64,000 nucleotides of DNA from Thalia democratica. Taxonomy: Eukaryota. The stretch lies in contig OZ241831.1 of NCBI GenBank assembly GCA_965202585.1, forward strand, positions 43,338,001 through 43,402,000, given 5' to 3'. Within the stretch, counting starts at the first letter, position 1. Each line of letters starts with the position of its first letter. Of this stretch, positions 9,001-15,000 are shown piece after piece. The position numbers are program-made.

Positions 9001-12000
9001 AATCTGTACAATATGTTTAACATGACAGGAGTATGTGTTATTGTAGGACGAACACTGCTTACAATTAATTTAAATAAAGTATGGGCTGTAATGAACTAAA
9101 AACTAGTTCCCTGTGTACTAAACAAGTTTAAGTTATAATTAAATCATTATTATTGTCTACTGAACTACATAAAAAACGCTCAAAAAGCTTGGTCTAAGAA
9201 CCTGGTGTACGAAAAAACCTTTTAGCAATCGAATAGTACACTATAACAGTTTAATGTCATGTCCAGGACATTAATTTTACCAAACAAACATTTAGCTTAA
9301 ATTTTTATTTTAATTTAAAATGTAAATTTTATAATTAGAAATCTTAGTCGTAAAAATATTATAAATACATAATATATACAATTCATATTAAAATGCACCA
9401 ACGTTTTGCAGCAGGAATTAAACGTTTAGCGAAGTTAAAACACTATTTTTATGAAGAGAAATTTTTTAATAAATGACGATAAGTCTGTCTGCTAAAGTCA
9501 TTGAAAAATATATAAAAGCTATAAATGTTGCTGCGATAATTAAATAAAAATAGCTTAGTATAAAAAGTCTATAAACTATATTTTCGTACATACAACCAAG
9601 TTTAACTAACTTTGGCTCGTTGATTTTGAAACCAAACTTGAACGACTCTAGGACTCAGACCTGTTTCGTTTGCTAAAGTTTCTCGTGCCTAATATATTAT
9701 TAAAAATTAACAAATAAAAACTTTATTTAAAACTATGGTGAAGATAAGCAAATACTAACCTAATTGAAAATTAAGAAAATATAAATATACGATATTTTGT
9801 TAAGTTTTACAAAAAATATACTGTTTTTTTTTGTCAATTGTTTTTAAGAGTAGGTGGTATAACCTTGACAGGATAATTTATGTCTTTTTTCAATGTTGAA
9901 TCATCCACATACGTCATAAGTATTTCAGTCATATTTAAACTTAACTTTTCGTAAGACATCAAATATTTTATTTAAAAAAAGGTAGTTAATATGTTTGACA
10001 TTGTTAAATTAACATATCTAAACACGAATAAGTTTAAATTTAGCAAAATTAACTTAAAAGTGTTTAAACAACATTTGAAATTTTCTCTTATTAATAAAAC
10101 AAAACAAAAACAATACAAACTTTACAACTTTTATAAGTATACAAGTTTTCAAAAACAAACAATAAATGTTTCCAACCTTTCTGGTAGGTTTCTGAAAAAC
10201 TTCAAATGCTGATTTAAACTTTCTACGTTGAGCTGTGGTCAGAATTGTCCTGGGTCGCTTCACTCCTCCCTGCTGGCTCCTTGGATCGTCTCCTCCGTGG
10301 ATGAACATACTTATGTCTCCGTGTGTGTCCTCACCTAGTTTTCTGTACCTCGCAGCGAGAACGTTGCACGAGTTCTCTGTTTGAAAAATTAAGAATATAT
10401 TTTAGTACTGAATGTTAGCTTATCTGAAAAAGATTTTGATATTGTAAGCTTAAGAAGTAGTAAAAAAATTAAACTTTTAAAGTAACGCATTTAGTTTGAT
10501 AAAATACTCCATAAAGGTTTGTGGCATTGTTTGTGAAGATTGTGTTTTACACATTTGAAAAAAATATACTTGTTGAAACTAAATATTAAAAAAAATAAAT
10601 AAACAATGCGTTATCAATTATAGAACCTACATCTGACATATTTAAAGATCCTGCTTCGGTCTGTTTATTAACGCAAGTTGATTGGTTCATTACAAAATTA
10701 CACGAGAGACAGGTAATAAGGCCACCATTTTCATCTCGTTTGCAATACTGTTCTCCAGGCTGTTTGTAAGCAAGTTTTTAACAATTTAGTTCCTTAAAAA
10801 TTAAAGATTTAAGAAGTAGAAACGAATTTAACTTATACTAATTTTTTTATTCAAAACTTTGTTTAAAAGTTAAACAAATATTAAAAGTCTTTTAAAACTT
10901 TAAAAAAAATATTTTTAAGTAATTTTAGAAGTATTTAAATAATTTGTAATAAGTTTCAAAGTAAAATGTATGTTAAGCTTTAATTATAATCAAGAAAATC
11001 ACACCAAATAACAAAACAAGTATTTCTGAACAATAAAAAAACTTTTTAATAAAAATTTATTGCAATTCACTCACCTTCACCAGTCGGCTGCATATTTCGC
11101 AGGAGAAGCACTCAACGTGAACGGGGCCGGGAAAAACCTTGGAGTTGGCGGCTATTGGCTGGCAGCAACGTTTGCACAGCTTCAACCTGTAAGTTGAACG
11201 TTGAATGTTTATTCTCCACGTTTGTGTGAAGTTTCAATGTTTATTTTTAATAAAACTTGTGTGAATATGGAATATTGATTTGTGTGCTTTTAGCTTGTGA
11301 TCATGTGCCGGTTTACTTTCTAGACAAGCGGCCTGTCAACTTGTGAGTGAAAATTTAATTGTTGTTGTTTTTTTTCACAAGTTTGCACAGCGCGACATGG
11401 CAAACAAAAATGCTGTCAGCTGTTAAAATTTTCTGTTGTTTTTAACAGCGAAGGTGTTTTACAGGTGCTCATATGAACTTGCCGAATTTTGAGACGAGCG
11501 ACGTCGAAGCTGCATTGTGACGTCATAACACAGCAAGACAGCAGAGAAAAACTTATGAAGCGCCTTCACTGTTGCGACTATGGCTCGCATTGAAACACCT
11601 GCCGAGGTGACTAAAGCAAAAACTTTCTCTCTTTGGAAATAAAGCCGAAAGTTTTCAACACAGAAGTGGGACACGAACTTGTGAGAACGCGTCGACAGCT
11701 GGGTTGCCACGGTAACGAGGTACGCTTTCGTCCAAACACCGTTTTTCTGTCAATCAAATCGAAGATGCGCCTAAACACCTTTTCACGATGAAAAGTTACG
11801 GTAGCTTTGTCTGCCATTGTGACGTCACTGTGAGACGGGCGTGAAATTCTCCCATCTGCTGGACTTCGTGACTTAAGTGAACAGAAAGGTGACTCAGCTG
11901 CTTTGTGATGATTGACGCAAATCTACAGAAGCAAAATACAAACTTTAATAAAAGAAATTGAGTGAGATGCACTTTCGTAATGGTGGATGCACGATGGGAA

Positions 12001-15000
12001 CTTTAAAATATTTTTGAGTTTGTTGTTGGTTTTAATTTACGAAATAAGTGTTGGTTGTATTAATTGTCTTTGCTTAATGCTAGTAGAGGATGTATAAAGT
12101 CAGTCTAATGTGTTGTACTTACCATACACATGTAGATTGTAAAAATTGTAGTTTGAAATTTAATAAAAGTGATTTAAGCAACTTATTAAATCTTATATGT
12201 GTTAAATTACCCAAACACAAATTTCTTCAATTTAAGAGACTTTCTCAACAAACTTGCAAAACAGTTCACAATTCTGCCCTCACTTTTGAAAGTTTCATGT
12301 GAAAATTCAGGTGAGAATCTCTCAGTGACAATTCAGTGGCGATGTGAAATTACATCAAAGCGTCAAAATTTTCCCATAAAAAACATTGGTATCTATTTTA
12401 GGAGCTAACATAAAAATGTTTTACTTGTTTTCGCGTATATACTTATTTACAAGCATGATAAACTAAACATTATCATTTGTTTTAAATCGCTTTAAAACAA
12501 CTATGCTTCATTCAATACAAAATCGTACCAACACTTTGATAGAGACAAAGTTGAAAACTTTAAACTAAAAGTGTTGTACAAAATAAGCTAACTTAATATA
12601 TATACAAAATAACTCACTAAATTGTTTATTTATTTTTAGCAGTAGGCTTAAAAAATAAAAAATAAAAAGTCATTTACTGTGACAGTTTATACACAATTAA
12701 TCTGTAAACTAAAGAAATTAATTGTGAAAGATAAACGACTTGCAAGCGTTAAATTTTAACATGTTTGCAATTTATTCTTGCAAAAACGGCCGACCTTACG
12801 AAAAGCACTGAATTTTTAAAAAGCTCTAAAATGCTTTTAATCTTGAAATAGCTGCAAATGCATTAAAAATTTTTTTATCGGCTTAACACAACTTAGCACG
12901 CACTAATGTTTGTTTATTGTTTACACTCGTTTGTAAGTCCACTCAAAACTTAAGAGGTATAAATGTAAAACTCAGTTATAAATGTATAGTAGAAAGCCTT
13001 CGTGGAAATTACATTAATACTGCACTTTAATTTCAAAGAAAAGTTCTTAATAAAAGTTGACCGTTGATACGCTCTATGAATTATTGAATTTTAACTTTAA
13101 AGTAATAGTTTTTCGGTACAATAAATTTAAAAATCATAAACTCTCTCGAAGTAGAAATGTTTGTGTGTTTTACTAAAATGATAAATTGACTATTAGATTA
13201 CTTTTATGTTTTATTTGCCGATACGCTCCTAGTAAATAAATTTATTTTAGTTTTAATAAAAACAGAGTAAGAGTTTAAACTAGTTCAAAAACTTGGCTTA
13301 AATTAGACATTTAGTTGAAAATTTTTTAAATTTGAAGATCAACACCAGGTAAAAATAGTCAAATTTTCAACTTTAATGTCAAAGTGTTTTAAAGATACAT
13401 GCGTAGCGCTGAACAGCTTAACTTTAATTGTTTATTCTCATCTTGACATTGATAAAATAGAGGTTTGTTAATTCTGAAAATATCTAGGCTAGCTATTTGT
13501 ATATTATTATTAGCTATGTAAACAACCGAAACTTTCTATATAGAAACTTTAAACATTTTAAAAAATTAGCATACGAAGTAGCTAGTTGCTTGCAAAATAA
13601 AAAATAATTGTCAAATTAATCAAGTTAACATTTTATCAACAACTTATTTACACCTGCTTGCAATTTCCGGCTGAGCCCAAATATCTTCACTAATTATATT
13701 CGTTCTGACTGAAATTATAGATGTGAGCTAATTTGTTTTCGTTTGCAGACAAAATAAGCTGACAGTTTCGGCTAAAAGGTGTGAACAAGTTTTATTTCCT
13801 GTTTACTGCCAAGCCAGTTCAATTCGGACGCGGGCTTGCCAAAACAAAATTATAACAAAATAAAACTCAATTAAACACCTGAGCTAAACAGAGTTATATT
13901 CAAACATATATAAGCTCACAAGAGTTAAATTTTAGTTTTTGAACCGTCAAATAAAACTTTTTTTTAACTAAAAATTTAGTTTAACGTTTACATCTAAAAA
14001 AAATCGATACTTAACCAAAAATAATATAAATTTTGATGAATTGATTTTTTTAATTCCTGCAAAAAAAAATTAATGCTTCCTCTTAACATGCATTACAAAC
14101 ATTATTAGTTAGTAAAAACTATGTGAAAAAGGCTAAAAAATTTAAAACTCGACTTTTTTGCATAAAAATTGTCGCGCTAAACTCAATTTCTTTGTTTTAT
14201 GAATGGTAGTTGTTTAATTCAGTTAAGTAATCTCTCTCCTCTGCGCAAAAACTTAATACGATCGAATTCCGATTCGTTAAATTTTCACCGGCTGCCGTTT
14301 GCCGCTACTTAACGCAATTTGACCATTGATTAGTTTTGACGAAAATTATTTTGTTTCTTTCAGGAGTTTATTTTTATATTGGCTACTCGCTTCAGAACAA
14401 ATCGAACTAAGATATTAAATTCAGCTGACATTCTCAAATGGTAATTGAAAGAACACTGAGCTGAATTAAATTAGAAAAATGAAAGAAAGTTTTTAGCTGG
14501 CATAATAAGTGTAATAATAAAATATTTGGTCGGAAAAAATCACTTTATAAGCTTAAAAACCATTAAAATATTTACTTTTGTAATAATTAGGTAAAAATAT
14601 AGACTAAAACAAAAATTAAAACTACTTATTTTAATAAAACATTTTTTTGTATAACTCATAGATATCTAAGAAAAAATTCTATATCGGAACAAATTAATCA
14701 TATGTGATTGATTTAAAAGACTTTAAAGCGAAGTTTATCATTTTATGTAATACATCAAAGTTTCAAAGGTCGTTGAGAGATTTACTAATAAGAAAAATGT
14801 ACATTTAACTTTAAACATGAAAATGGAGATGTTTTTATTTTTTTCTTTAAATTGAACAACTCAAAAATAAATAAAATAGCTAAAAATCTAAATTCGATAG
14901 TTTCTATGATAATACTAATCTAAAAACTTTTAAAATTTTAAAATCATGTTCTAATTGACTAAGTTAAATTTTTATTTATTTAACTATTAAGCAATCTTTA

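What the first reader, a model, noticed from the sequence alone, without database searches (positions are those of the whole stretch)
10380..13660. Probable gene-conversion tract homogenising only the LIM2 module
Seen: 10380-13660 and ~51700-55145 are near-identical even across AT-rich introns 3 and 4, whereas introns 5-8 and the distal part of intron 2 are unalignable. Hand counts: exon 3 4/112 and exon 4 5/133 differences, versus exon 5 20/200, exon 6 6/78 (all silent) and a visibly more divergent LIM1 exon. Inference: recent interlocus conversion keeps LIM2 and the intron-2 enhancer shared while LIM1, the homeodomain arm and the C-terminus diverge, i.e. domain-specific concerted evolution in a TF pair.
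Basis: partly seen in the sequence, partly recalled or inferred. Interest (0 to 1): 0.66.

Follow-up and report, generated by a model that had tools for sequence, protein, structure and literature searches.

The report
Gene conversion between tandem Lmx genes
Two neighbouring copies of an Lmx-type developmental regulator gene share a roughly 3.2 kb stretch, mostly intron, that was recently copied from one to the other; this is a clean but ordinary case of gene conversion, not a mechanism aimed at one protein domain.

Summary
Two intact nine-exon Lmx1-like LIM-homeodomain genes lie in tandem on the minus strand, A at 6711-15873 and B at 49159-57448. A third copy starts at about 62045.

Change-point analysis shows a mosaic: 2.0% difference in 10408-12726, 11.1% in 12727-13097, 2.5% in 13098-13628, 10.8% in 13629-13883, then about 40%. 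Intron 3 is 17.8% G+C yet 97.5% identical with no gaps. Only 9-27% of introns 5-8 align at all. The homeobox exon 6 encodes identical protein in both copies but differs at 6 of 78 bases, more than these introns do.

Two unnamed database sequences (P0122, P0123) show that part of intron 2 is a conserved non-coding element. They match only in blocks, at 43-66% translated identity, where A and B differ at 0 of 35 and 2 of 96 residues.

Best reading: recent, probably repeated, interlocus gene conversion laid over a real intronic conserved element. The "LIM2-specific" interpretation is not supported, because 92% of the tract is non-coding and the exons are no better preserved than the introns. Assembly error could not be tested.

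The parts
6711..15873 (-). Gene A: Lmx1-like LIM-homeodomain gene, 9 coding exons. E1 15787-15873, E2 15125-15380, E3 11075-11186, E4 10627-10759, E5 10177-10376, E6 9611-9688, E7 8521-8596, E8 about 7840-7990, E9 about 6711-7064.
   Evidence: TBLASTN of database protein P0002 against the window. AG/GT splice sites were checked for E2-E7. E1 was placed with the N-terminus of P0003. Pfam LIM match on E2, E=3.7e-13. The E8/E9 junction is not settled.
49159..57448 (-). Gene B: the tandem paralogue. E1 57362-57448, E2 56703-56958, E3 52400-52511, E4 51952-52084, E5 51501-51700, E6 50654-50731, E7 50111-50186, E8 about 49725-49875, E9 about 49159-49527.
   Evidence: Pfam LIM match on E2, E=1.2e-13.
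10408..12726 (.). Young block 1 in copy A: 46/2260 = 2.0% difference. It covers most of intron 4, exon 4, intron 3, exon 3 and proximal intron 2.
   Evidence: Change-point analysis, segment table, list of differences.
51732..54202 (.). Young block 1 in copy B. It includes a B-only 210-bp insertion at 53702-53911 flanked by an ATAAAAA direct repeat.
   Evidence: Coordinate mapping, sequence, indel list.
12727..13097 (.). Intermediate block in A: 41/370 = 11.1% difference. B counterpart 54203-54574.
13098..13628 (.). Young block 2 in A: 13/530 = 2.5% difference, 24.5% G+C, plain AT-rich intron. B counterpart 54575-55109.
13629..13883 (.). Right shoulder in A: 27/250 = 10.8% difference. B counterpart 55110-55359. 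Beyond it the difference is 39.7%.
11492..11939 (.). Conserved non-coding element inside intron 2 of A (B counterpart 52817-53262). It lies in the 34% G+C stretch 11187-12726.
   Evidence: ORF translations from other public contigs match here. P0122 matches at 64-66% identity and P0123 at 43% in blocks. A 2-bp indel between A and B at 11888-11889 breaks the frame, so it is not coding.
62045..63983 (.). Start of a third tandem unit. It is homologous to the 3' flank of gene A (1248-3302).
   Evidence: Self-BLASTN: 68% over 1432 columns and 87.6% over 274 ungapped columns.

Best explanation
Non-reciprocal recombination (interlocus gene conversion) between two old tandem Lmx1-like paralogues overwrote about 3.2 kb of one copy with the other's sequence. 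In gene order the tract runs from mid-intron 2 through exon 3, intron 3 and exon 4 to the last 30 bp of intron 4. The mosaic of roughly 2% blocks set within roughly 11% blocks fits either more than one event or patchy repair of one heteroduplex. In the first case an older exchange reached out to about 13883 and a younger one or two covered 10408-12726 and 13098-13628. The tract lies over a genuine conserved non-coding element in intron 2, which evolves about half as fast as the rest of the tract. What is shown: the identity profile, its boundaries, its extension into AT-rich introns, and the much lower similarity of third sequences. What is inferred: the mechanism, the number of events and their relative ages. 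The young blocks have JC distance of about 0.02-0.03. Alignable background intron has about 0.29-0.40, and summed dS outside the tract is 0.23.
For: (1) Both flanks are diverged and the middle is not: 12.8% | 2.0% | 11.1% | 2.5% | 10.8% | 39.7% difference. An internal tract of this kind needs conversion or a double exchange, not a single unequal crossover. (2) Neutral-looking DNA is homogenised. Intron 3 (315 bp, 17.8% G+C) differs at 8/315 with 0 gaps, intron 4 at 13/250 and block 13098-13628 at 13/530. Introns 5-8 are only 9-27% alignable, at 69-83.5% identity. (3) None of the 45 fifty-bp windows in 10408-12726 has more than 4 differences. The 17 AT-rich windows (G+C at most 26%) differ at 2.5% and the 28 others at 1.8%. 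(4) Exon 6, the recognition-helix half of the homeobox, encodes identical protein yet differs at 6/78 = 7.7%, all silent (dS 0.44). That is three times the divergence of intron 3. (5) Third sequences differ far more. In the intron-2 element A and B differ at 0/35 and 2/96 translated residues, against 8/35 to P0122 and 38/79 to P0123. In LIM1 exon 2 the counts are A-B 17/84, A-P0001 15/84 and B-P0001 15/84. The contrast gives Fisher p=5e-6 and p=0.0125. (6) In per-exon protein distances A-B is the closest pair inside the tract (5/81). Outside it A-B is the closest pair in 0 of 3 partitions. In E2, A-P0002 is 15/79 against A-B 17/84. In E5, B-P0003 is 4/66 and A-P0003 6/66 against A-B 8/66. In E6-8, B-P0002 is 9/100 against A-B 14/100. 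(7) The transition:transversion ratio is 36:23 in the young blocks and 138:207 in distal intron 2, as expected for young versus saturated divergence.
Against: No DNA of the third copy or of an orthologue could be obtained, so there are no per-segment nucleotide trees and no GENECONV/RDP run. The third sequences are unnamed, of unknown organism, known only as translated ORFs, and cover only 11492-11939. The exon synonymous contrast is marginal (p=0.053), and E8 outside the tract has an equally low dS (0.092). The protein distance differences rest on small counts (5 against 7-10 of 81). Part of the tract is truly under constraint: 22/1481 differences in 11187-12726 against 43/1340 in the rest of the young blocks (p=0.0025). 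The assembly cannot be verified from the window.
Confidence: 0.8

Rival explanations
1. Purifying selection alone: the tract is an unusually long, ultra-conserved intronic regulatory block together with the constrained LIM2 exons, and no sequence was exchanged.
For: The stretch 11187-12726 is 34% G+C against 18-27% in the other introns. It holds stop-free runs in several frames. Homologues exist in other public contigs (P0122 and P0123). It diverges at half the rate of the rest of the tract (p=0.0025).
Against: The same identity holds in 17.8-24.5% G+C introns. AT-rich windows are as similar as G+C-richer ones. The third sequences show what constraint looks like here: short conserved blocks with indels at 43-66% translated identity, not 98% throughout. 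The introns are more alike than the silent sites of the homeobox exon.
Confidence: 0.06
2. Assembly artefact: a chimeric join, a partial collapse, or consensus polishing with cross-mapped reads made the two copies look alike over 2-3 kb.
For: There is no direct evidence. Multi-kb repeats of high identity in a tandem array are where such errors occur, and the window offers no read-level check.
Against: The two copies still differ at 46 + 13 substitutions in the young blocks and by indels of 210, 55 and 1-4 bp. The profile is layered (2% / 11% / 2.5% / 11%) rather than a single identical block. Both copies sit in one contig with strongly diverged flanks.
Confidence: 0.08
3. One reading: selection favours homogenisation of the LIM2 domain and the shared enhancer, giving domain-specific concerted evolution, while the other domains are free to diverge.
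For: Both LIM2 exons lie in the tract and A-B is the closest protein pair there (5/81). LIM1 shows fast protein change, with E2 dN/dS about 0.61, and E8 has dN 0.114 against dS 0.092. The layered profile hints at repeated events at the same place.
Against: 92% of the tract is non-coding. The exons differ more than the non-coding part (3.7% vs 1.8%), and 5 of the 9 exon differences are non-synonymous. Exon 3 shows only 0-3 pairwise differences in 37 residues among A, B and P0002-P0005, so ordinary purifying selection explains its conservation. There are no replicate lineages and no functional data.
Confidence: 0.1

Closest known systems
Repeated gene conversion between the tandem homeobox genes TPRX1 and TPRX2 in mammals (PMC8208926; outline and abstract read)
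   Same: Tandemly duplicated homeobox transcription factor genes are homogenised by interlocus conversion over part of their length. [quoted passage not shown]
   Different: Here the tract avoids the homeobox, whose exons 5 and 6 have dS 0.32 and 0.44. It is mostly intron, belongs to the LIM class rather than the PRD class, and is seen in one genome only, so recurrence across lineages is not shown.
Classical interlocus conversion in tandem gene pairs, for example delta/beta-globin (PMC4041002) and the OPN1LW/OPN1MW opsin cluster (PMC9271157). Both were seen only as search listings with the start of the abstract.
   Same: An internal patch of near-identity between tandem paralogues is bounded by diverged flanks. 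Exchange occurs by conversion or unequal crossing-over.
   Different: This is a different gene family and organism. No population or multi-species data are available here. That such tracts usually span a few hundred bp to a few kb is recalled from general knowledge and was not checked in a call.
Lmx1 family of LIM-homeodomain transcription factors. The closest named protein is Ciona intestinalis Q4H388 (P0008).
   Same: Two LIM domains followed by a homeodomain and a conserved C-terminal motif near the end. The best named hits of P0002 are annotated LIM homeobox transcription factor 1 alpha/beta.
   Different: P0002 is only 33% identical to the Ciona protein. The first finger of LIM2 is 3 residues shorter than in P0008. 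At least three tandem copies are present.

Membership tests
Interlocus (ectopic) gene conversion tract | A segment of sharply raised identity between paralogous loci, bounded on both sides by diverged homologous sequence. | tested here: met
   Difference of 2.0-2.5% inside against 12.8% (exon 5) and 39.7% outside. BIC favours 7 segments. Flanking introns are 9-62% alignable at 69-83.5% identity.
Interlocus (ectopic) gene conversion tract | The raised identity extends to sites expected to be neutral, namely introns and synonymous sites. | tested here: met
   Introns 3 and 4 and 13098-13628 (17.8-24.5% G+C) differ at 2.5%, 5.2% and 2.5%. The synonymous contrast alone is marginal: 4 differences over 52 sites against 30 over 154, p=0.053.
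Interlocus (ectopic) gene conversion tract | Phylogenetic incongruence between tract and flanks when a third copy or outgroup is added. | tested here: inconclusive
   Only protein-level distances to unnamed database sequences were possible. A-B is the closest pair inside the tract (5/81) and in 0 of 3 partitions outside it. The counts are small, the organisms are unknown and there are no nucleotide trees.
Interlocus (ectopic) gene conversion tract | The tract is not equally conserved in other copies or orthologues, which would indicate constraint. | tested here: met
   This could be tested only for 11492-11939. There A-B differ at 0/35 and 2/96 translated residues, against 8/35 (P0122) and 38/79 (P0123). 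The rest of the tract is untested.
Interlocus (ectopic) gene conversion tract | Both copies are real in the genome, as shown by read-level support. | not testable with these tools
   No reads or alternative assemblies are available.
Lmx1-type LIM-homeodomain transcription factor | Two N-terminal LIM domains with their zinc ligands. | tested here: met
   LIM1 matches Pfam PF00412 at E=3.7e-13 (A) and 1.2e-13 (B). The LIM2 first-half exon alone scores E=0.0037 and 0.0017, below the gathering score. The Cys/His ligand pattern is read from the exon 3 and exon 4 translations. None of the 5 A-B residue differences in LIM2 touches a ligand.
Lmx1-type LIM-homeodomain transcription factor | A homeodomain whose closest named relatives are Lmx1. 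| tested here: met
   The homeodomain is split between E5 and E6, and the single-exon Pfam scan of E5 gave no hit. Exons 5 and 6 align to P0002, which carries PF00046, at 61-67% and 96% identity. The named hits of P0002 are Lmx1 alpha/beta.
Conserved non-coding element / intronic enhancer | Non-coding sequence conserved in other genomes or copies. | tested here: met
   P0122 and P0123 match 11492-11939 in blocks. A frame-breaking 2-bp indel between A and B argues against coding.
Conserved non-coding element / intronic enhancer | Regulatory activity. | not testable with these tools
   This needs a reporter assay.
Selection-driven, domain-specific concerted evolution | Homogenisation is confined to, or strongest in, the domain's coding sequence. 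| tested here: not met
   Exons make up 245 of the 3221 bp in 10408-13628. They differ at 9/245 against 37/2015 for non-coding DNA in young block 1.

The most novel reading that the evidence does not exclude
The same few kilobases are a recurrent conversion hotspot that selection maintains. Both paralogues would then keep one shared intronic regulatory element and one cofactor-binding LIM2 surface while LIM1, the homeodomain arm and the C-terminus specialise. The layered 2% / 11% profile and the conserved element in the centre of the tract are compatible with this but do not require it.
Probability: 0.1. Interest if true: 0.55.

Novelty: new member of a known kind. Interest (0 to 1): 0.27.

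Why it matters
This is a tidy, well-bounded case of interlocus gene conversion in a developmental transcription factor array of an AT-rich, probably tunicate-related, genome. It has two practical consequences. Trees or dating built on exons 3 and 4 or proximal intron 2 would badly underestimate the age of the duplication. The intron-2 element at about 11.2-12.7 kb is a concrete candidate regulatory region to test. It does not change what is known about how conversion works.

Tried and rejected
1. Exon synonymous divergence as the sole test: too few sites. E3+E4 have 4 synonymous differences over 52 sites, p=0.053.
2. The global MAFFT alignment of the whole 17-kb units misaligned exon 6 and most of introns 5-8. 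Local BLASTN per intron replaced it.
3. G+C-biased conversion as a signature: rejected. Only 11187-12726 is G+C-enriched, while introns 3 and 4 and 13098-13628 in the tract are 17.8-24.5% G+C.
4. A structured RNA or tRNA-derived element in the tract: Rfam gave 0 matches at gathering score over the whole window and ARAGORN found 0 genes.
5. A coding reading of the long stop-free runs at 11462-12002: rejected. Several frames are open at once, a 2-bp A/B indel breaks the frame, and the matches to P0122 and P0123 switch frame and carry indels.
6. A transposon inserted independently in both copies: rejected. The tract is colinear with exons 3 and 4 and has no other copy in the window.
7. A literature check for this locus. 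The searches were 'gene conversion' + 'LIM homeobox' + 'tandem duplic' (3 papers); 'Lmx' + 'tunicate' + 'LIM-homeodomain' + 'duplication', at least 3 of 4 terms (72 papers, 12 listed); 'Lmx' + 'Oikopleura' + 'homeobox' (6 papers); and 'interlocus gene conversion' + 'intron' + 'tandem' + 'transcription factor' (19 papers, 10 listed). None of the listed titles or abstract starts concerns conversion between Lmx genes. Only listings were read, apart from the abstract of PMC8208926, and supplements were not consulted.
8. Not possible: DNA of the third copy or of orthologues.
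Full report
**What the window is.** The window is 64 kb, 27% G+C, and contains no N. I do not take it for human. The best named relatives of its main gene are tunicate proteins.

Self-BLASTN shows a colinear direct duplication, A about 3029-19437 against B about 44686-61198. Identity rises from about 70% at the edges to 96.6% at 10127-12383 and falls again. A third unit starts at 62045-63983, which matches 1248-3302.

**The genes.** Both units carry a gene on the minus strand. 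A single-exon query (LIM1 exon) retrieved an unnamed full-length relative, P0002 (491 aa, LIM + homeodomain). Aligning P0002 to the window placed exons 2-9 in each copy; exon 1 was placed with the N-terminus of P0003. Canonical AG/GT splice sites were checked for exons 2-7. Exon 1 has a start methionine in both copies.

Named relatives of P0002 are annotated LIM homeobox transcription factor 1 alpha/beta. Ciona, Phallusia and Styela come first, at 32-40% identity. The genes are therefore tandem Lmx1-like LIM-homeodomain genes, and both look intact.

I did not build or search a joined spliced model, and where a combined figure was needed I summed per-exon counts. The exon 8/9 junction is not settled, because A and B seem to need different splice-site pairs (read).

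**The observation.** LIM1 exon 2 differs at 26/256. A dynamic-programming change-point fit on ungapped columns from 10100 to 14300 prefers seven segments by BIC:

| Segment (A coordinates) | Differences | Per cent |
|---|---|---|
| 10100-10407 | 37/290 | 12.8 |
| 10408-12726 | 46/2260 | 2.0 |
| 12727-13097 | 41/370 | 11.1 |
| 13098-13628 | 13/530 | 2.5 |
| 13629-13883 | 27/250 | 10.8 |
| 13884-14236 | 127/320 | 39.7 |
| 14237-14300 | 5/64 | 7.8 |

In B the two young blocks are 51732-54202 and 54575-55109. B also has a 210-bp insertion (53702-53911) flanked by an ATAAAAA direct repeat, and it lacks 55 bp present in A.

Local BLASTN intron by intron gives:

| Intron | Share of A covered | Identity |
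|---|---|---|
| Intron 1 | 88% | 69% |
| Intron 2, distal | 62% | 76% |
| Intron 2, tract part | 100% | 93.6% |
| Intron 3 | 100% | 97.5% |
| Intron 4 | 100% | 94.4% |
| Intron 5 | 27% | 75% |
| Intron 6 | 18% | 69% |
| Intron 7 | 9% | 76% |
| Intron 8 | 11% | 83.5% |

The exceptions are that distal intron 2 is partly alignable and that the tract is layered rather than uniform.

**Conversion or constraint?** Four results favour recent exchange.

- The identity covers DNA with no sign of function. Intron 3 is 17.8% G+C, differs at 8/315 and has no gap. Block 13098-13628 is 24.5% G+C and differs at 13/530.
- Within 10408-12726 none of the 45 fifty-bp windows has more than 4 differences. The 17 AT-rich windows differ at 2.5% and the 28 others at 1.8%. 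Constraint would have to act on essentially every base.
- Exon 6 encodes an identical homeodomain half in A and B yet differs at 7.7% of bases (dS 0.44). That is three times the divergence of intron 3.
- The transition:transversion ratio is 36:23 in the young blocks against 138:207 in distal intron 2.

**Third sequences.** I used translated stop-free runs from intron 2 as probes and found two unnamed ORFs from other public contigs. P0122 (82 aa) matches A 11782-11939 and B 53107-53262 at 64-66% identity. P0123 (98 aa) matches A 11492-11769 at 43% identity. Its conserved blocks of about 11 residues are separated by diverged, indel-rich stretches.

A conserved non-coding element therefore does exist in the 34% G+C part of intron 2. 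This agrees with that part diverging at half the rate of the rest of the young blocks (22/1481 against 43/1340, p=0.0025). The third sequences also show what constraint alone produces here, and it is nothing like 98% identity. Over the same frames A and B differ at 0/35 and 2/96 residues, against 8/35 and 38/79 to the third sequences.

In LIM1 exon 2 the picture is a near-equal three-way split: A-B 17/84, A-P0001 15/84, B-P0001 15/84. The contrast between the two regions gives Fisher p=5e-6 and p=0.0125.

Per-exon protein distances point the same way but rest on small counts. A-B is the closest pair in exons 3+4 (5/81, others 7-10/81). It is the closest pair in none of the three outside partitions. 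In E2, A-P0002 is 15/79. In E5, B-P0003 is 4/66 and A-P0003 6/66 against A-B 8/66. In E6-8, B-P0002 is 9/100 against A-B 14/100.

The caveats are real. These sequences are unnamed and their organisms unknown. They may be paralogues or orthologues, only their translations are available, and they cover only about 450 bp of the tract.

**Mechanism.** Both flanks of the tract are diverged, so a single unequal crossover cannot produce it. It needs a non-reciprocal patch, that is gene conversion or the equivalent double exchange.

The left boundary is sharp. Six of intron 4's 13 differences cluster at 10396-10406, and exon 5 immediately beyond has dS 0.32. On the right the profile steps through 11% before reaching about 40%, and a 371-bp block at 11% interrupts the young sequence. 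I read this either as an older exchange reaching about 13883 with one or two younger ones on top, or as one event with patchy repair. This step is inference.

On a rough clock the young blocks (JC 0.02-0.03) are about a tenth as old as the duplication. Alignable intron has JC 0.29-0.40 and summed dS outside the tract is 0.23.

**The 'LIM2 module' claim.** Of the 3221 bp in 10408-13628 only 245 are exon. Within young block 1 the exons differ at 9/245 against 37/2015 for non-coding DNA (p=0.087), so they are more diverged, not less. Five of the nine exon differences change the protein, and none touches a zinc ligand. Exon 3 shows only 0-3 pairwise differences in 37 residues among A, B and P0002-P0005, so ordinary purifying selection accounts for its conservation.

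The exon synonymous contrast by itself is marginal (p=0.053), and exon 8 outside the tract has an equally low dS. The LIM2 exons are best seen as passengers in an intronic tract. A selected, domain-specific process is not excluded but has no support here.

**Rivals and what is known.** An assembly artefact cannot be tested from the window. The private substitutions, the indels and the layered profile speak against a simple collapse or chimera.

Interlocus conversion between tandem paralogues is textbook. For homeobox genes specifically, repeated conversion between TPRX1 and TPRX2 'especially in the homeobox region' is in print (PMC8208926, abstract read). Globin and opsin examples appeared in a search listing only. 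Four literature searches listed nothing on conversion between Lmx genes, but only listings were read and supplements were closed.

**Verdict.** The finding is a new instance of a known process.

Noticed in passing
window 29451-30716 (+): A single uninterrupted 422-codon frame lies between the two Lmx copies. It is 40% G+C in a 27% G+C window. It matches Pfam Peptidase_C2 (calpain) at E=1.2e-17, and its ESM Atlas neighbours are eukaryotic calpain-domain clusters. It looks like an intronless calpain-like gene or retrocopy.
   Followed up: partly
window 39654-41430, mainly minus strand: Several stop-interrupted ORFs sit here. One of them (40370-40825, minus strand) matches Pfam RVT_1 at E=3.8e-9. 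This is a decayed retroelement in the 24-kb spacer between copies A and B.
   Followed up: partly
window 44139-44669: A 15-bp tandem repeat with 35.8 copies and 91% matches lies inside a 351-codon Asp/Ala-rich open frame at 43834-44886. It sits where copy B's 3' flank stops matching copy A's.
   Followed up: partly
window 3554-3881, 5348-5668, 44811-45116: A dispersed element of about 320 bp is present three times at 82-83% identity, twice downstream of gene A and once downstream of gene B. It has a similar stop-free frame on the minus strand in all three copies. ARAGORN finds no tRNA-like gene.
   Followed up: no
window 3029-3302 and 63710-63983: A 274-bp ungapped block is 87.6% identical between the 3' flank of gene A and the third unit, next to sequence that is only 68% identical. 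It could be another conserved element or another exchange tract. The window ends at 64000.
   Followed up: no
window 51501-51700 (exon 5 of B): Copy B has KRLRT in the N-terminal arm of the homeodomain. Copy A and all 7 aligned relatives (P0002-P0008) have KRPRT. Copy A in turn has private changes just downstream, EVF where the closest relatives have QVS.
   Followed up: no
exon 2 (15125-15380 / 56703-56958) and exon 8 (about 7840-7990 / 49725-49875): Protein change is fast outside the homeodomain. Exon 2 (LIM1) has dN 0.099 against dS 0.162, and exon 8 has dN 0.114 against dS 0.092. The counts are small and no test for selection was done.
   Followed up: no
window 53702-53911: A 210-bp B-only insertion inside the youngest block is flanked by an ATAAAAA direct repeat. 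It could be a small insertion with a target-site duplication in B or a microhomology deletion in A. No other copy is present in the window.
   Followed up: partly
window 51034-51195: A 77-bp unit is repeated 2.1 times in intron 5 of copy B.
   Followed up: no
window 19850-20786 and 23839-24764: A 75% identical direct repeat of about 0.95 kb lies in the spacer upstream of gene A.
   Followed up: no
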